This document shows positions 9,801-28,333 of a stretch of 64,000 bases of DNA, piece by piece (position 1 is the stretch's first letter; every line of letters starts with the position of its first letter). Under the pieces are notes generated by a model. That model was not told where the DNA came from. It made no database searches and was given only the letters and a program-made list of their open reading frames with translations. A program made the position numbers and the translations under genes. Location: NCBI RefSeq assembly GCF_044647545.1, contig NZ_CP172818.1. One strand, 5' to 3'. Source of the stretch: Escherichia coli (GTDB lineage Bacteria; Pseudomonadota; Gammaproteobacteria; Enterobacterales; Enterobacteriaceae).

Positions 9801-9962
9801 TCTCCCTCACAGAATGGCACATCACTGGACCTGCAGGCCGGACTGGAAGCCCGTGTCCGGGAAAATATCACCCTGGGCGTTCAGGCCGGTTATGCCCACA
9901 GCGTCAGCGGCAGCAGCGCTGAAGGGTATAACGGTCAGGCCACACTGAATGTGACCTTCTGA
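6843..9962 (+). CDS. flu: Antigen 43 self-associating autotransporter adhesin, 1039 aa
   Basis: Starts MKRHLNTCYRLVWNHMTGAFVVASELARARG (extended autotransporter signal); repetitive beta-helix passenger; C-terminal beta-barrel ending ...GQATLNVTF; track ORF 6687..9962 trimmed to the internal ATG. Confidence 0.92.
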   Translation: MKRHLNTCYRLVWNHMTGAFVVASELARARGKRGGVAVALSLAAVTSLPVLAADIVVHPGETVNGGTLANHDNQIVFGTTNGMTISTGLEYGPDNEANTGGQWVQDGGTANKTTVTSGGLQRVNPGGSVSDTVISAGGGQSLQGRAVNTTLNGGEQWMHEGAIATGTVINDKGWQVVKPGTVATDTVVNTGAEGGPDAENGDTGQFVRGDAVRTTINKNGRQIVRAEGTANTTVVYAGGDQTVHGHALDTTLNGGYQYVHNGGTASDTVVNSDGWQIVKNGGVAGNTTVNQKGRLQVDAGGTATNVTLKQGGALVTSTAATVTGINRLGAFSVVEGKADNVVLENGGRLDVLTGHTATNTRVDDGGTLDVRNGGTATTVSMGNGGVLLADSGAAVSGTRSDGKAFSIGGGQADALMLEKGSSFTLNAGDTATDTTVNGGLFTARGGTLAGTTTLNNGAILTLSGKTVNNDTLTIREGDALLQGGSLTGNGSVEKSGSGTLTVSNTTLTQKAVNLNEGTLTLNDSTVTTDVIAQRGTALKLTGSTVLNGAIDPTNVTLASGATWNIPDNATVQSVVDDLSHAGQIHFTSTRTGKFVPATLKVKNLNGQNGTISLRVRPDMAQNNADRLVIDGGRATGKTILNLVNAGNSASGLATSGKGIQVVEAINGATTEEGAFVQGNRLQAGAFNYSLNRDSDESWYLRSENAYRAEVPLYASMLTQAMDYDRIVAGSRSHQTGVNGENNSVRLSIQGGHLGHDNNGGIARGATPESSGSYGFVRLEGDLMRTEVAGMSVTAGVYGAAGHSSVDVKDDDGSRAGTVRDDAGSLGGYLNLVHTSSGLWADIVAQGTRHSMKASSDNNDFRARGWGWLGSLETGLPFSITDNLMLEPQLQYTWQGLSLDDGKDNAGYVKFGHGSAQHVRAGFRLGSHNDMTFGEGTSSRAPLRDSAKHSVSELPVNWWVQPSVIRTFSSRGDMRVGTSTAGSGMTFSPSQNGTSLDLQAGLEARVRENITLGVQAGYAHSVSGSSAEGYNGQATLNVTF

Positions 9963-9982
9963 CAGAACCATCGCCTCTCTGT

Positions 9983-10007
9983 GGTCCCGGTCATCATGAC
10001 CGGGACC
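9983..10007. repeat. Near-perfect palindrome ggtcccggtcat c atgaccgggacc immediately downstream of flu
   Basis: Read from sequence; 12-bp arms; no T-run follows. Confidence 0.6.
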
Positions 10008-10082
10008 CGGACCGGCGCAACGGATCTTCAACGCCACATTCGCTGGCATTAACAATAACATGATATTCATCACGGAGTGACT

Positions 10083-11615
10083 ATGTTACAGATAGTCGGC
10101 GCGCTGATCCTGCTGATCGCAGGATTTGCCATTCTTCGCCTTTTGTTCAGAGCATTAATCAGCACGGCTTCTGCGCTGGCAGGGCTCATATTGCTGTGTC
10201 TGTTCGGCCCGGCCTTACTGGCTGGCTATATCACCGAACGCATAACCCGGTTGTTCCATATTCGCTGGCTGGCAGGCGTATTTCTGACGATTGCCGGAAT
10301 GATCATCAGCTTCATGTGGGGACTTGATGGTAAACATATCGCGCTGGAGGCTCACACCTTTGACTCTGTGAAATTTATTCTGACCACCGCTCTCGCCGGT
10401 GGTCTGCTGGCTGTTCCCCTGCAGATCAAAAACATTCAGCAGAACGGGATCACACCAGAAGATATCAGCAAGGAAATTAACGGGTATTACTGCTGTTTTT
10501 ATACTGCCTTTTTCCTTATGGCGTGTTCTGCATGCGCACCATTGATCGCGTTACAGTACGATATTTCACCGTCACTGATGTGGTGGGGCGGGTTGTTGTA
10601 CTGGCTGGCTGCATTAGTGACGCTGCTATGGGCGGCCAGCCAGATCCAGGCGCTGAAAAAACTGACCTGTGCCATCAGCCAGACACTGGAAGAACAACCG
10701 GTGCTCAACAGTAAATCGTGGCTGACCAGTTTGCAAAACGATTACAGCCTTCCTGACTCACTGACGGAGCGCATCTGGCTGACGCTCATTTCTCAACGGA
10801 TTTCCCGGGGAGAGCTGAGGGAATTTGAACTGGCAGACGGAAACTGGTTACTGAACAATGCCTGGTATGAAAGAAACATGGCAGGGTTTAACGAACAGTT
10901 GAAAGAGAACCTGTCATTCACACCTGATGAACTGAAAACGCTCTTCCGGAACCGCCTGAATTTATCACCGGAAGCGAATGACGATTTTCTCGATCGTTGC
11001 CTGGACGGCGGTGACTGGTATCCCTTTTCAGAAGGTCGCCGTTTTGTATCATTCCATCACGTGGATGAGCTTCGTATCTGTGCCTCCTGCGGGCTGACAG
11101 AAGTACATCATGCCCCGGAAAATCATAAGCCGGATCCGGAATGGTACTGCTCCTCTCTTTGTCGCGAAACAGAAACACTGTGTCAGGAAATTTATGAACG
11201 CCCTTACAACAGCTTTATTTCCGATGCAACGGCGAATGGTCTGATTCTCATGAAACTGCCGGAAACCTGGAGTACAAATGAGAAAATGTTTGCTTCCGGA
11301 GGGCAGGGACATGGGTTTGCCGCTGAACGGGGAAACCATATTGTCGACAGAGTCCGTCTGAAAAACGCACGGATCCTCGGTGATAATAATGCCAGAAATG
11401 GAGCAGACAGACTGGTCAGCGGAACAGAAATCCAGACGAAATATTGTTCAACTGCAGCCCGTAGCGTCGGTGCGGCATTCGACGGACAAAACGGACAGTA
11501 TCGTTACATGGGAAATAATGGCCCCATGCAACTGGAAGTCCCCCGTGATCAGTATGCCGGCGCTGTTGAAACCATGAGGAATAAGATCCGCGAAGGTAAA
11601 GTAGAGGAGCGATGA
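10083..11615 (+). CDS. yeeR: Prophage-encoded membrane protein of unknown function, 510 aa
   Basis: Hydrophobic N-terminus MLQIVGALILLIAGFAILRLLF; Cys motif CASCGL-x17-CSSLC; overlaps yeeS by ATGA. Confidence 0.8.
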   Translation: MLQIVGALILLIAGFAILRLLFRALISTASALAGLILLCLFGPALLAGYITERITRLFHIRWLAGVFLTIAGMIISFMWGLDGKHIALEAHTFDSVKFILTTALAGGLLAVPLQIKNIQQNGITPEDISKEINGYYCCFYTAFFLMACSACAPLIALQYDISPSLMWWGGLLYWLAALVTLLWAASQIQALKKLTCAISQTLEEQPVLNSKSWLTSLQNDYSLPDSLTERIWLTLISQRISRGELREFELADGNWLLNNAWYERNMAGFNEQLKENLSFTPDELKTLFRNRLNLSPEANDDFLDRCLDGGDWYPFSEGRRFVSFHHVDELRICASCGLTEVHHAPENHKPDPEWYCSSLCRETETLCQEIYERPYNSFISDATANGLILMKLPETWSTNEKMFASGGQGHGFAAERGNHIVDRVRLKNARILGDNNARNGADRLVSGTEIQTKYCSTAARSVGAAFDGQNGQYRYMGNNGPMQLEVPRDQYAGAVETMRNKIREGKVEER

Positions 11616-14246: not shown

Positions 14247-14346
14247 TTTCGATAGGTTCTCAGATGAGAATGATGACGGTGATACACAGATAAGAATCAA
14301 TGAGCAATGAGGGTTGCCGGGCAACCCTCATTGAATAAAACAGGAA

Positions 14347-23618: not shown

Positions 23619-24443
23619 TTACTCCAGCGGCATTACCAGCGGATCGGGATACTGGTATTCAAACCCCAGTTCATTACAAATCCGACTGCCATCAATAATC
23701 TTACCTTTGCCGCTGTCCAGACTATTTCTGAACTGCGGAGGTTCCAGCCCCAGTAAACGGGCCATCTGCGGATAGAAAACATTACGCGCAGGGTGAGCTG
23801 GCGCACATATATTATAGATGTGTCCGCCTTTAGGTGCCTGTAACAACAGAGTGATAGCGCCAATAACATCTTCTAAATGGACTAAATTAACACCATGTTC
23901 ACCATCAGGCGCGGTTTTTCCGGCAAAGAAGCGTCCGGGATGACGTCCCGGTCCGACAAGGCCCGCAAGACGCAGAATATCGACCGAAGTACCGGGTAAA
24001 TTGTGCAGCCAGTCTTCGAGTTCTTCTAATACTCTTCCACTGTTGGTTACCGGATTACGCGGGGTAGTTTCTTTCACCGTGCCTTGCGCGTCGCCATAGA
24101 CAGACGTTGAGCTGGTGAAAATAATGCGGGGAATACGATGAGCCAGCGCGCTATCCACTAACTCTTGTACCGCTTGTAAATAGAACTCATCGCCGGGGCC
24201 GCTACGACGTGCCGGAAGCGTAATGACCAGCGCATCGGCATCCATCAGGGCATCCAGATCGTCAGAATCGCAAACTAACTCAGGCTCCATGCGAAGCAGA
24301 TAGCTATCAATGCCACTCATTCGGGCCGCTTCGACACCATCTTGTGTGGTTTTACTCCCGGTGACTTGCCAGCCTCGCGCTGAAAGTGACATCGCCAGCG
24401 GCATGCCTAACCACCCTAACCCGACAATTGCGACCTTTTTCAT
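23619..24443 (-). CDS. yeeZ: NAD(P)-binding epimerase/dehydratase-like protein YeeZ, 274 aa
   Basis: Rossmann motif MKKVAIVGLGWLGMPLAMSL. Confidence 0.88.
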   Translation of the reverse strand: MKKVAIVGLGWLGMPLAMSLSARGWQVTGSKTTQDGVEAARMSGIDSYLLRMEPELVCDSDDLDALMDADALVITLPARRSGPGDEFYLQAVQELVDSALAHRIPRIIFTSSTSVYGDAQGTVKETTPRNPVTNSGRVLEELEDWLHNLPGTSVDILRLAGLVGPGRHPGRFFAGKTAPDGEHGVNLVHLEDVIGAITLLLQAPKGGHIYNICAPAHPARNVFYPQMARLLGLEPPQFRNSLDSGKGKIIDGSRICNELGFEYQYPDPLVMPLE

Positions 24444-24593
24444 CCGTTATCTCCTGATACACCTAAGATCTATAAGGCTACGCTAGCGTATCAAAACTGA
24501 CAATTCATTCTATGAATGAGACGTTCATACCACACAAGAAAATTATGAGAGAAAGATCAATATTGAACTTTACCAACATTTGTAGACCAGATA

Positions 24594-24626
24594 AGGCATT
24601 CACGCCGCATCCGGCAGGAACCAAAG
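24594..24626 (-). repeat. REP (repetitive extragenic palindromic) element
   Basis: Reverse complement cctgccggatgcggcgtgaatgccttatctg matches the REP consensus. Confidence 0.7.
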
Positions 24627-24794
24627 CCCACTTTAGTTACAGAACACAATGTTCTTGAGGGTTTTAAAGACATATTTTCACGATTTCTTTTCTAACGTAG
24701 TCAAAACCACCTAACGCCAGTCACTCCAGGCCCCCTCCTTTCCCCGCTCATTCATTAAACAAATCCATTGCCATAAAATATATAAAAAAGCCCT

Positions 24795-24823
24795 TGCTTT
24801 CTAACGTGAAAGTGGTTTAGGTT
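24795..24823 (+). promoter_or_regulatory. his operon promoter candidate: -35 ttgctt (24795-24800), 17-bp spacer, -10 taggtt (24818-24823)
   Basis: Hexamers and spacing read from sequence about 40 bp upstream of hisL. Confidence 0.45.
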
Positions 24824-24861
24824 AAAAGACATCAGTTGAATAAACATTCACAGAGACTTTT

Positions 24862-24912
24862 ATGACACGCGTTCAATTTAAACACCACCATCATCACCAT
24901 CATCCTGACTAG
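24862..24912 (+). CDS. hisL: his operon leader peptide (16 aa, seven consecutive His codons)
   Basis: atgacacgcgttcaatttaaacaccaccatcatcaccatcatcctgactag = MTRVQFKHHHHHHHPD. Confidence 0.97.
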   Translation: MTRVQFKHHHHHHHPD

Positions 24913-24975
24913 TCTTTCAGGCGATGTGTGCTGGAAGACATTCAGATCTTCCAGTGGTGCATGAACGCATGAGAA

Positions 24976-25012
24976 AGCCCCCGGAAGATCACCTTCCGGG
25001 GGCTTTTTTATT
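24976..25012 (+). terminator. his attenuator terminator (agcccccggaag atcac cttccgggggct tttttatt)
   Basis: Perfect 12-bp GC-rich stem followed by a T-run between hisL and hisG. Confidence 0.9.
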
Positions 25013-25057
25013 GCGCGGTTGATAACGGTTCAGACAGGTTTAAAGAGGAATAACAAA

Positions 25058-25957
25058 ATGACAGACAACACTCGTTTACGCATAGCTATGCAGAAATCCG
25101 GCCGTTTAAGTGATGATTCACGCGAATTGCTGGCGCGCTGTGGCATTAAAATCAATCTTCACACCCAGCGCCTGATCGCGATGGCAGAAAACATGCCGAT
25201 TGATATTCTGCGCGTGCGTGACGACGACATTCCCGGTCTGGTAATGGATGGCGTGGTAGACCTTGGGATTATCGGCGAAAACGTGCTGGAAGAAGAGCTG
25301 CTTAACCGCCGCGCCCAGGGTGAAGATCCGCGCTACTTTACCCTGCGTCGTCTGGATTTTGGCGGCTGCCGACTTTCACTGGCAACGCCGGTTGATGAAG
25401 CCTGGGACGGCCCGCTCTCCTTAAACGGTAAACGTATCGCCACCTCTTATCCTCACCTGCTCAAGCGTTATCTCGACCAGAAAGGCATCTCTTTTAAATC
25501 CTGCTTACTGAACGGTTCTGTTGAAGTCGCCCCGCGTGCCGGACTGGCGGATGCGATTTGCGATCTGGTTTCCACCGGTGCCACGCTGGAAGCAAACGGC
25601 CTGCGCGAAGTCGAAGTTATCTACCGCTCGAAAGCTTGCCTGATCCAACGCGATGGCGAAATGGAAGAATCCAAACAGCAACTGATCGACAAACTGCTGA
25701 CCCGTATTCAGGGTGTGATCCAGGCGCGCGAATCAAAATACATCATGATGCACGCACCGACCGAACGTCTGGATGAAGTCATCGCCCTGCTGCCAGGTGC
25801 CGAACGCCCAACTATTCTGCCGCTGGCGGGTGATCAACAGCGCGTAGCGATGCACATGGTCAGCAGCGAAACCCTGTTCTGGGAAACCATGGAAAAACTG
25901 AAAGCGCTGGGTGCCAGTTCAATCCTGGTCCTGCCGATTGAGAAGATGATGGAGTGA
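25058..25957 (+). CDS. hisG: ATP phosphoribosyltransferase, 299 aa
   Basis: [31 protein letters not shown]; operon order. Confidence 0.95.
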
Positions 25958-25962
25958 TCGCC

Positions 25963-28333
<2,371 letters not shown>

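What the first reader, a model, noticed from the sequence alone, without database searches (positions are those of the whole stretch)
9963..10082. GC-rich palindrome immediately after the flu stop codon without a T-run
ggtcccggtcat c atgaccgggacc (9983-10007) forms a 12-bp-arm inverted repeat 20 bp past the flu stop; no T-run follows. It could be a Rho-independent-like pause site, a partial terminator allowing read-through into yeeR, or a protein-binding site.
Basis: seen in the sequence. Interest (0 to 1): 0.25.

Follow-up and report, generated by a model that had tools for sequence, protein, structure and literature searches.

The report
Hairpin ending the Ag43 (flu) message
The palindrome is a conserved RNA hairpin that marks the 3' end of the Ag43 adhesin message; in this version of the locus it has lost the run of U's that makes a full terminator, so part of transcription leaks into the next gene, which is an ordinary and largely explained feature.

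Summary
GGTCCCGGTCAT-C-ATGACCGGGACC lies at 9983-10007, 20 nt after the flu/agn43 stop codon, and no T-run follows it. It folds into an 11-bp hairpin, or 15 bp with the flanking UCUG/CGGA (-26.6 kcal/mol, z about -5).

It is an island of conservation after agn43 genes. Two stem positions show compensatory changes, and most one-sided changes (five of the seven varying stem positions) are G·U wobbles on the plus strand. About half of E. coli genomes carry a sister version followed by TTTTTACTTTC, a canonical terminator whose next gene is DUF905. The version here replaces that T-run with CGGACC and is always followed by yeeR.

Published MG1655 long-read data place the flu transcript's 3' end at window 10012, just past the hairpin, with 20-38% read-through. 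Term-seq finds a minus-strand 3' end at 9976. agn43-yeeR-irmA co-transcription is published for UPEC.

Best reading: a former intrinsic-terminator hairpin, kept as a 3'-end-defining and protective stem-loop that passes only part of the transcription into yeeR. Whether the 3' end comes from termination or from exonuclease trimming is not resolved.

This is a new member of a known kind and of low to moderate interest.

The parts
9960..9962 (+). TGA stop codon of flu/agn43
   Evidence: The ORF 6687-9962 and the RefSeq annotation of identical loci as agn43.
9983..10007 (+). Core palindrome GGTCCCGGTCAT-C-ATGACCGGGACC, which forms an 11-bp RNA stem with a 3-nt loop
   Evidence: In 27 distinct variants 98.7% of cells are paired, with compensatory changes at two pairs.
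9978..10011 (+). Extended hairpin: UCUG (9978-9981) pairs with CGGA (10008-10011), and U9982 is bulged
   Evidence: Minimum-energy and centroid folds. The only variant seen in the extension is C9979 to T, which gives U·G.
10008..10013 (+). CGGACC, the segment that sits where sister alleles carry the T-run TTTT(T)ACTTTCAG
   Evidence: Alignments. The terminator scan is positive in L006 and negative in the window.
10012..10012 (+). Steady-state 3' end of flu transcripts, mapped from MG1655 coordinate 2074708 (a second entry gives 2074706)
   Evidence: SMRT-Cappable-seq Supplementary Data 1 of PMC6131387. The coordinate offset of 2064696 comes from an exact 61-nt match.
9976..9976 (-). 3' end of a minus-strand RNA, 7 nt after the hairpin (...GGGACCACAGAGA-3'), mapped from MG1655 coordinate 2074672
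   Evidence: Term-seq Supplementary file 1 of PMC7815308, present on two growth-condition sheets with about 24,000 and 27,000 reads.
10060..10089 (-). Promoter-like site GTAACA-18-TATCAT on the minus strand; a start near 10053 would give an RNA of about 78 nt ending at 9976
   Evidence: Consensus scan only. No start-site data could be obtained, so this part is hypothetical.
10075..10085 (+). yeeR ribosome-binding site GGAG and ATG start codon
   Evidence: Sequence, ORF list and RefSeq annotation of identical loci.
10106..10126 (+). Second, weaker hairpin GAUCCUGC-UGAUC-GCAGGAUU inside yeeR codons 8-15; the median read-through transcript ends about here
   Evidence: Fold. The median read-through is 113-114 nt beyond the main 3' end in both media. 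A median is not a mapped end, so this is tentative.

Best explanation
The palindrome is transcribed as the last structured element of the flu/agn43 mRNA and acts at the RNA level on the plus strand. It is the hairpin of the ancestral agn43 intrinsic terminator. In alleles followed by a DUF905 gene it still carries the U-tract (GGCCCCGGUCAUCAUGACCGGGGCUUUUUACUUUC).

In yeeR-linked alleles, including this window, the U-tract has been replaced by CGGACC, which lengthens the stem instead. Without a U-tract, RNA polymerase is not expected to release efficiently at the hairpin. I infer that transcription runs on into the yeeR leader and 5' coding region, where most of it stops by an undetermined route (Rho or weak sites). 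3'-to-5' exonucleases then trim the RNA back to the foot of the hairpin.

The result is a stable flu mRNA ending at about 10012, with a minority of transcripts (20-38% in MG1655) extending towards yeeR, and towards irmA in strains that have it. The hairpin therefore sets the ratio of abundant Ag43 message to scarce downstream message, and it protects the Ag43 message.

Shown: the structure, its conservation and covariation, the link between T-run presence and the downstream gene, 3' ends next to the hairpin on both strands, partial read-through, and co-transcription. Inferred: that the 3' end arises by trimming rather than release at the hairpin, any involvement of Rho, and the selective benefit.
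For: - **Structure.** The hairpin is very stable and far beyond shuffled controls.
- **Conservation.** The hairpin is 100% identical between the A1 and A2 subtypes and 88% identical to class B, while flanks are only 48-79% identical (alignments).
- **Covariation.** Stem pair 3 is U-A in the no-T-run class and C-G in the T-run class. Stem pair 8 runs G-C to G·U to A-U entirely within the no-T-run class. The central loop base varies C/A/T. Overall 98.7% of cells are paired, and 0 of 500 shuffles reach the observed covariation score.
- **Strand.** One-sided changes at five stem positions give G·U or U·G on the plus strand, and four of them are recurrent. Only two singletons would be wobbles on the minus strand. 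The plus-strand fold is also stronger (-26.6 against -22.7 kcal/mol).
- **Natural comparison.** The T-run version is always followed by the DUF905 start (59/59), and the no-T-run version by yeeR (60/66; the other 6 have a deletion of the yeeR 5' end). Each version occurs in about half of 5,426 complete E. coli genomes. The terminator scan flags only the T-run version.
- **Transcript ends.** MG1655 long reads from the flu promoter end at 2074708, which is window 10012. In M9, 403 of 1006 reads end there and 103 pass. In rich medium, 112 of 588 end there and 69 pass. The end lies 1 nt after the extended stem and has no U's. This matches the class described by Dar and Sorek 2018, in which stable stem-loops without U-tracts sit at the ends of Rho-dependent transcripts and protect against PNPase and RNase II.
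- **Other strand.** The same hairpin also defines a minus-strand 3' end at 9976 without any U-tract, showing that it stops 3' ends in vivo whatever its context.
- **Read-through.** agn43-yeeR-irmA are co-transcribed in EC958, and an IS insertion between agn43 and yeeR abolishes IrmA in CFT073. flu rises 63.6-fold against 4.6-fold for yeeR in a K-12 gcvB mutant, and both rise in an oxyR mutant.
Against: - There is no direct evidence that the 3' end is made by trimming, and no data from bicyclomycin treatment or exonuclease mutants for this site.
- The Adams 2021 bicyclomycin dataset lists no plus-strand Rho region at flu-yeeR, and its Term-seq lists no plus-strand 3' end at the hairpin. Possibly flu was poorly expressed in those cultures.
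- The C:G ratio downstream is only 1.1-1.3, which is a weak signature for a Rho loading site.
- Reads ending at the site outnumber reads that pass it by 1.6 to 4 fold. If polymerase does not stop at the hairpin, downstream termination and trimming must both be efficient.
- Long-read libraries under-represent very long transcripts, so read-through may be underestimated.
- In EAEC 042, irmA is transcribed from its own promoter rather than from flu.
- All transcript data come from MG1655 or other strains. They are transferred to the window by exact identity of 9966-10026 and 100% identity of 9900-10140 to K-12 strains. The window itself is not MG1655.
- Covariation counts rest on two compensatory positions and on related sequences.
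Confidence: 0.55

Rival explanations
1. The hairpin is a genuine, partly efficient transcription terminator that works without a U-tract. The long GC-rich hairpin, possibly helped by NusA, NusG or a pause, would release RNA polymerase at about 10010-10012. The 20-38% read-through would then be true terminator leakage.
For: A sharp 3' end occurs at the same nucleotide in two media, and 62-80% of the transcripts that reach it end there. 3' ends form on both strands. The hairpin descends from a canonical terminator.
Against: By established knowledge of intrinsic termination, E. coli polymerase needs a weak rU:dA hybrid, and release occurs 7-9 nt after the stem. Here the last 9 nt are GACCCGGAC and the end lies 1 nt after the extended stem. 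The terminator scan is negative. Stem-loops without U-tracts at steady-state 3' ends are explained by trimming in Dar and Sorek 2018.
Confidence: 0.2
2. The hairpin is a relic. It is simply what remains of the agn43 terminator after the T-run was lost when yeeR-irmA became linked. It would have no selected role in this allele, and the 3' ends would be an incidental result of any stable hairpin blocking exonucleases.
For: The T-run version is the canonical form. Any stable hairpin can block exonucleases. The alleles are closely related, so some of the conservation may reflect recent ancestry.
Against: Within the no-T-run class the hairpin is 100% conserved between subtypes whose flanks are 68-79% identical. 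A complete G-C to G·U to A-U replacement occurred within this class. The replacement sequence CGGA extends the stem rather than being neutral.
Confidence: 0.12
3. The palindrome's main role is on the minus strand. It would end or stabilise a short antisense RNA that starts in the yeeR leader (near 10053) and finishes at 9976.
For: Term-seq shows a 3' end at 9976 on the minus strand in two conditions with about 24,000-27,000 reads. A promoter-like site is correctly placed at 10089-10060. The predicted 78-nt RNA folds well (z = -3.4).
Against: No start site has been documented. The promoter-like hexamers overlap the yeeR start codon and ribosome-binding region, so their conservation is uninformative. 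Wobble variants pair on the plus strand and would be A·C mismatches on the minus strand. The hairpin is equally conserved in T-run alleles that lack yeeR and this promoter. The minus-strand fold is weaker.
Confidence: 0.08
4. The palindrome is a DNA-level element: a binding site for a dimeric protein, or a recombination or cruciform site marking a module boundary.
For: The 12-bp arms have perfect dyad symmetry. Homology between allele classes drops at the edges of the palindrome, and recombinant alleles exist (L013 and L028).
Against: The variation follows RNA pairing rules, including strand-specific G·U intermediates and a free central base, rather than conserving a recognition sequence. RNA 3' ends map to its foot on both strands. 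The same core palindrome serves as an ordinary terminator hairpin in unrelated phage contigs. No protein is known to bind it.
Confidence: 0.03

Closest known systems
[quoted passage not shown]
   Same: It is a stable GC-rich stem-loop with no U-rich tail. A precise steady-state 3' end lies immediately downstream (window 10012 on plus, 9976 on minus). A longer, diffuse population of transcripts extends beyond it.
   Different: Rho dependence, a Rho loading site directly downstream, and dependence on PNPase or RNase II are not shown for this site. The C:G ratio downstream is only 1.1-1.3. This hairpin also has a clear origin as an intrinsic terminator.
Canonical Rho-independent (intrinsic) terminator, as still present after agn43 alleles followed by DUF905
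   Same: The hairpin is homologous (22 of 25 nt identical, with a compensatory change) and sits at the same position after the agn43 stop codon.
   Different: The window lacks the U-tract altogether (CGGACC instead of UUUUUACUUUC). The mapped 3' end is too close to the stem for the canonical mechanism.
Intercistronic stabiliser hairpins that set differential expression within operons (for example the REP elements between malE and malF; from general knowledge)
   Same: A stable hairpin lies between an abundant upstream cistron and scarce downstream cistrons. The upstream message ends at the hairpin while some transcripts continue.
   Different: It is not a REP sequence and is essentially single-copy per agn43 locus. 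No half-life measurements exist for flu mRNA with and without the hairpin.
Bidirectional terminators shared by convergent or overlapping transcripts (for example can/hpt, described in PMC6131387)
   Same: 3' ends are documented on both strands at one palindromic hairpin.
   Different: There is no A-tract upstream or U-tract downstream. The two flanking genes are co-directional, not convergent, and the minus-strand RNA is an unannotated antisense transcript.

Membership tests
Intrinsic (Rho-independent) terminator | GC-rich stem-loop shortly after the stop codon | tested here: met
   An 11-bp core stem (15 bp extended), -26.6 kcal/mol, 20 nt after the TGA.
Intrinsic (Rho-independent) terminator | U-rich tract immediately 3' of the stem | tested here: not met
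   CGGACCGGCGCAACGG follows the stem, and the scan finds no terminator. The feature is met in the sister allele L006.
Intrinsic (Rho-independent) terminator | RNA 3' end about 7-9 nt after the stem, within the U-tract | tested here: not met
   The plus-strand end at 10012 is 5 nt after the core stem and 1 nt after the extended stem, with no U's.
Intrinsic (Rho-independent) terminator | Factor-independent release of RNA polymerase in vitro | not testable with these tools
   This needs in vitro transcription.
Protective stem-loop at the 3' end of Rho-dependent transcripts (Dar and Sorek 2018) | Stable stem-loop not followed by U-rich sequence | tested here: met
Protective stem-loop at the 3' end of Rho-dependent transcripts (Dar and Sorek 2018) | Precise steady-state 3' end immediately downstream of the stem-loop | tested here: met
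   Published MG1655 data show 2074708 on plus (window 10012) and 2074672 on minus (window 9976).
Protective stem-loop at the 3' end of Rho-dependent transcripts (Dar and Sorek 2018) | Transcript termination depends on Rho (bicyclomycin-sensitive) | tested here: inconclusive
   The bicyclomycin table of PMC7815308 has no plus-strand entry for flu or yeeR, only a minus-strand region inside flu. flu expression in those cultures is unknown, and no other bicyclomycin data were found.
Protective stem-loop at the 3' end of Rho-dependent transcripts (Dar and Sorek 2018) | C-rich, G-poor Rho loading site just downstream | tested here: inconclusive
   C:G is 1.31 over 10008-10082 and 1.11 over 10013-10130, which is a weak bias.
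Protective stem-loop at the 3' end of Rho-dependent transcripts (Dar and Sorek 2018) | 3' end position depends on PNPase or RNase II | not testable with these tools
   This needs 3'-end mapping in exonuclease mutants.
REP/BIME repeated extragenic palindromes | Many dispersed copies per genome | tested here: not met
   There is one site in the 64-kb window, even allowing 3 mismatches. The median is 1 place per genome across 2,563 genomes. In the flu-anchored sample it always lies after an agn43 gene.
Bidirectional intrinsic terminator | Hairpin flanked by an A-tract upstream and a U-tract downstream | tested here: not met
   The flanks are CCTCTCTGT and CGGACCGG.
Any curated RNA family (Rfam 15) | Match to a covariance model | tested here: not met
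   No hit at 9963-10082 at E of 1 or less. The only real hit in 5-16 kb is IS102/IsrC at 6619-6822.

The most novel reading that the evidence does not exclude
The hairpin is a U-tract-independent element that forms 3' ends on both strands, and it is used by two overlapping RNAs. One is the phase-variable flu mRNA. The other is an antisense RNA of about 78 nt that starts in the yeeR leader (about 10053) and ends at 9976. That antisense RNA is fully complementary to the flu-yeeR spacer of read-through transcripts. By pairing with them, and perhaps by triggering duplex cleavage, it could control how much flu transcription reaches yeeR (and irmA in pathogens).
Probability: 0.08. Interest if true: 0.55.

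Novelty: new member of a known kind. Interest (0 to 1): 0.27.

Why it matters
Ag43 is a major phase-variable adhesin, and in uropathogenic strains its transcript also carries yeeR and the immune-mimic gene irmA. This hairpin is the point where the amount of message passed to those downstream genes is set.

The two natural versions of the site, with and without the U-tract, each occur in about half of sequenced E. coli. Each is tied to a different downstream gene. Together they form a ready-made natural experiment on how a terminator is converted into a leaky, stabilising hairpin when an operon gains genes.

For genome annotation the point is practical. The flu 3' end in K-12 is real but will be missed by terminator predictors that require a U-tract.

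Tried and rejected
- **Rfam.** A search of 5-16 kb at E of 1 or less found nothing at the site.
- **Genome-contig scan.** The same anchor on metagenome contigs worked.
- **Minus-strand start site.**
  - Thomason 2015 is not held.
  - The Cappable-seq start-site table is truncated in storage and does not reach this region.
  - The SMRT-Cappable-seq files have no reverse-strand entry here.
  - The antisense promoter therefore remains a consensus match only.
- **Rho dependence.**
  - Peters 2012 is not held.
  - No paper combines bicyclomycin and yeeR.
  - The Dar and Sorek supplements are not held.
  - The TERMITe supplements have no entry.
- **Rho loading signature.** Base composition downstream was examined and the bias is too weak to use.
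- **Diffuse-end argument.** I considered using the share of long reads ending within 50 bp downstream of the site as evidence for trimming. I rejected it because known terminators in the same table show similar ratios.
- **REP element.** Rejected on copy number.
- **Protein operator.** Rejected because variation follows RNA pairing.
- **Cah/dynamin alleles.** They have no comparable hairpin (-4.3 kcal/mol, z = +0.3), so the hairpin is not universal to the Ag43/Cah family.

Full report
**Observation.** The window reads TGA (9960-9962, end of the flu/agn43 ORF), then 20 nt, then GGTCCCGGTCAT-C-ATGACCGGGACC at 9983-10007, then CGGACCGGCGCAACGGATCTTCAAC.
- The repeat finder reports 12-nt arms, 100% complementary, 1 nt apart.
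- As RNA the sequence forms an 11-bp stem with a 3-nt loop. UCUG (9978-9981) pairing with CGGA (10008-10011) lengthens the stem.
- The energy is -26.4 to -26.6 kcal/mol, z about -5, and 0 of 200 shuffles fold as well.
- No T-run follows, and the terminator scan finds nothing here.
- Only one other perfect hairpin with arms of 12 nt or more exists in the 64 kb.
- yeeR starts at ATG 10083 behind GGAG.

**Comparative anatomy.** A 241-nt query across the site matches 4,111 of 5,426 complete E. coli genomes. In the divergent hits, homology stops at the 3' edge of the palindrome. I fetched twelve loci, aligned them, and then scanned metagenome contigs with a degenerate anchor on the last codons of agn43. 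This gave 135 post-stop sequences, which fall into three classes.

| Class | Sequence after the stop codon | Next gene |
|---|---|---|
| A (includes the window) | GGTCCCGGTCAT-C-ATGACCGGGACC + CGGAC... | yeeR in 60 of 66; the other 6 have a yeeR 5' deletion |
| B | GGCCCCGGTCAT-[C/A/T]-ATGACCGGGGC[C/T] + TTTTACTTTCAGGGAG...ATG | DUF905 in 59 of 59 |
| C (Cah-type, followed by a dynamin-family gene) | No comparable hairpin (-4.3 kcal/mol, z = +0.3) | dynamin-family gene |

- The class B sequence is a textbook intrinsic terminator. The scan flags it in L006.
- Class A occurs in 2,561 complete genomes and class B in 2,668.
- The hairpin is an island of conservation. It is 100% identical between class A subtypes and 88% identical between classes A and B. 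The 20 nt upstream and 50 nt downstream are only 48-79% identical.
- Past the T-run position, a short stretch (GGCGCAACGGATAT against GGAGCAACAGATAT) suggests the two classes stay homologous. If so, the T-run itself was locally replaced: 12 nt became the 6 nt CGGACC. This is my reading of the alignment.

**The variation follows RNA pairing on the plus strand.** Among 27 distinct variants, 98.7% of stem cells form standard pairs.
- Pair 3 is U-A in class A and C-G in class B.
- Pair 8 goes G-C, then G·U (ATGATC variants, 14 sequences), then A-U (GATCAT/ATGATC, 7 sequences), all within class A.
- None of 500 shuffles reaches the observed covariation score, and sliding the partners by 1-3 columns destroys the pairing.
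- The central loop base is free to be C, A or T.
- One-sided changes at five stem positions (GGGATC, GGTTCC, GGGGCT, the ATGATC intermediate, and a single GGT/GGGGCT variant at pair 3) are G·U or U·G on the plus strand. They would be A·C mismatches on the minus strand.
- Only two singletons go the other way.
- The one variant in the stem extension (C9979 to T) is also a plus-strand wobble.
- By count of events the bias is modest. By frequency it is clear.

This argues for a selected RNA structure in the flu mRNA, including in the alleles that have no T-run. It argues against a protein-recognition palindrome.

**Published transcript data.** The window is not MG1655; for example, it has a SNP in the yeeX 3' region. 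However, 9966-10026 matches MG1655 exactly, and 9900-10140 is 100% identical to K-12 strains. Anchoring on a 61-nt Term-seq sequence gives genome = window + 2,064,696.

| Data set (MG1655) | Reads from the flu start site | End at 2074708 (window 10012) | Pass the site | End within 50 bp downstream | Median read-through |
|---|---|---|---|---|---|
| SMRT-Cappable-seq, M9 | 1006 | 403 | 103 | 103 | 114 nt |
| SMRT-Cappable-seq, rich medium | 588 | 112 | 69 | 64 | 113 nt |

- These figures come from Yan et al. 2018, PMC6131387, Supplementary Data 1. The start site is 2071316/7, and the site is labelled 'novelTTS'.
- Read-through is therefore about 20% in M9 and 38% in rich medium.
- The end lies 5 nt after the core stem and 1 nt after the extended stem.
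- The median read-through end falls at about window 10126, the foot of a second, weaker hairpin at 10106-10126 inside yeeR. A median is not a mapped end, so this is tentative.
- Term-seq (Adams et al. 2021, PMC7815308, Supplementary file 1) lists no plus-strand end here. It does list a minus-strand 3' end at 2074672, which is window 9976, on two condition sheets (about 24,000 and 27,000 reads).
- That minus-strand end is 7 nt after the hairpin, reading ...GGGACCACAGAGA-3'.
- The same paper's bicyclomycin table lists a Rho-dependent region on the minus strand inside flu (2072596). It lists nothing on the plus strand at flu-yeeR.

**Read-through in the literature.**
- Moriel et al. 2016 (PMC4807369) showed by RT-PCR that agn43-yeeR-irmA form one transcript in EC958 oxyR. 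They also showed that an IS insertion between agn43a and yeeR in CFT073 abolishes IrmA.
- In K-12 NCM3722, deleting gcvB raises flu 63.6-fold but yeeR only 4.6-fold. Both rise in an oxyR mutant (PMC8614746).
- In EAEC 042, irmA uses its own promoter (PMC9431211).

Transcription therefore does cross the hairpin, but it is strongly attenuated.

**Mechanism.** Intrinsic termination in E. coli needs a U-rich hybrid, and release occurs 7-9 nt after the stem (established knowledge). Here the last nine nucleotides are GACCCGGAC and the end abuts the stem.

This is the pattern described by Dar and Sorek 2018 (PMC6061677). [quoted passage not shown]

My preferred account has three steps:
1. The hairpin is the old agn43 terminator hairpin.
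2. In yeeR-linked alleles its U-tract was replaced, which opened the way into yeeR-irmA.
3. The hairpin was kept, and even lengthened, because it defines and protects the 3' end of the abundant flu message after downstream termination and exonuclease trimming.

The structure, conservation, covariation, allele association, 3' ends and read-through are shown. The trimming step and any role of Rho are inferred. The C:G bias downstream is weak, and no bicyclomycin or exonuclease data exist for the plus strand.

**Rivals.**
- True U-tract-independent termination is the main rival. Only in vitro transcription or nascent-RNA mapping can separate it from trimming.
- A functionless relic is unlikely, given conservation and compensatory change within class A.
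- A primary minus-strand role is suggested by the Term-seq end and a promoter-like site at 10089-10060. It is weakened by the plus-strand wobble bias, by the hairpin's conservation in class B loci that lack yeeR, and by the absence of start-site data.
- A DNA-level protein or recombination site is not supported.

**Comparison with the known, and novelty.** The element works like the protective 3' stem-loops of Rho-dependent transcripts and like intercistronic stabiliser hairpins.
- It fails two defining tests for an intrinsic terminator: the U-tract and the position of the end.
- It is not a REP element.
- It matches no Rfam family.
- The 3' end was already catalogued as an unnamed 'novelTTS' in 2018. 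I found no description of the hairpin, its allelic T-run polymorphism or its covariation.

It is best called a new member of a known kind. Interest is low to moderate. The appealing part is the natural pair of alleles, which shows a terminator converted into a leaky stabilising hairpin when the operon was extended.

Noticed in passing
window 9976 (minus strand) and 10060-10089 (minus strand): Published Term-seq shows a minus-strand RNA 3' end 7 nt after the hairpin. A consensus promoter-like site (GTAACA-18-TATCAT) overlapping the yeeR start could give an antisense RNA of about 78 nt spanning 10053 to 9976. No start-site data could be obtained.
   Followed up: partly
window about 7900 (minus strand; MG1655 2072596): The bicyclomycin data set of PMC7815308 lists a Rho-dependent termination region antisense inside flu. 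An antisense transcript therefore runs through part of the flu coding region.
   Followed up: no
window 10106-10126 (+): A second hairpin, GAUCCUGC-UGAUC-GCAGGAUU, followed by UGCCAUUCUUCGCCUUUUG, lies inside yeeR codons 8-15. The median read-through of flu transcripts (113-114 nt) ends at about its foot.
   Followed up: partly
window 6619-6822 (+): There is a strong Rfam match to IS102 RNA (IsrC; 252.6 bits, E = 9e-49) in the flu leader. The long-read operon entry lists b4435 and b2000 on one transcript from start site 2071316.
   Followed up: no
window 14305-14333: The only other perfect long hairpin in the window (14-nt arms, CAATGAGGGTTGCC-C-GGCAACCCTCATTG) is the yeeX 3' hairpin, which has Term-seq 3' ends in MG1655. 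It too lacks a clean U-tract. The window differs from MG1655 by a SNP just upstream (TTCCTG against TTCCCG), so the window strain is not MG1655.
   Followed up: partly
window 10077-11615 compared with L001, L002 and L012: yeeR in the window is the short K-12 form (a 512-aa ORF), whereas E7, WB61 and ST131 loci have a 2,517-nt (838-aa) gene. irmA is absent and yeeS follows directly. This agrees with the deletion noted by Moriel et al.
   Followed up: partly
L003, L057, L082, L091, L102, L132 (strain 4/4 type): The allele carrying the fully compensated A-U pair (GATCAT/ATGATC) always has a deletion that removes the yeeR 5' end about 45 nt after the hairpin.
   Followed up: no
L016 2213-2520 (IMG/VR UViG_3300036647_000057): Five tandem copies of a roughly 36-nt repeat, GTTTTCCCGGTCATCATGACCGGGCTCCGTTGTGGC, are spaced 71-74 nt apart. 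This looks like a CRISPR array whose repeat happens to contain the same palindrome core. It is unrelated to agn43.
   Followed up: no
L018 10830-10848; L017 41-59; L020 5588-5606: Unrelated viral contigs use the same core CCCGGTCAT-N-ATGACCGGG followed by TTTTTT or TTTTCTC. In those contexts it is an ordinary intrinsic terminator hairpin.
   Followed up: no
L013 (JAHAYL010000019.1, labelled Oxalobacter sp. MAG): This 4-kb contig carries an E. coli-type agn43 3' end with a recombinant arrangement (class B upstream flank, class A hairpin and downstream flank). It is probably a mis-binned Escherichia contig.
   Followed up: no
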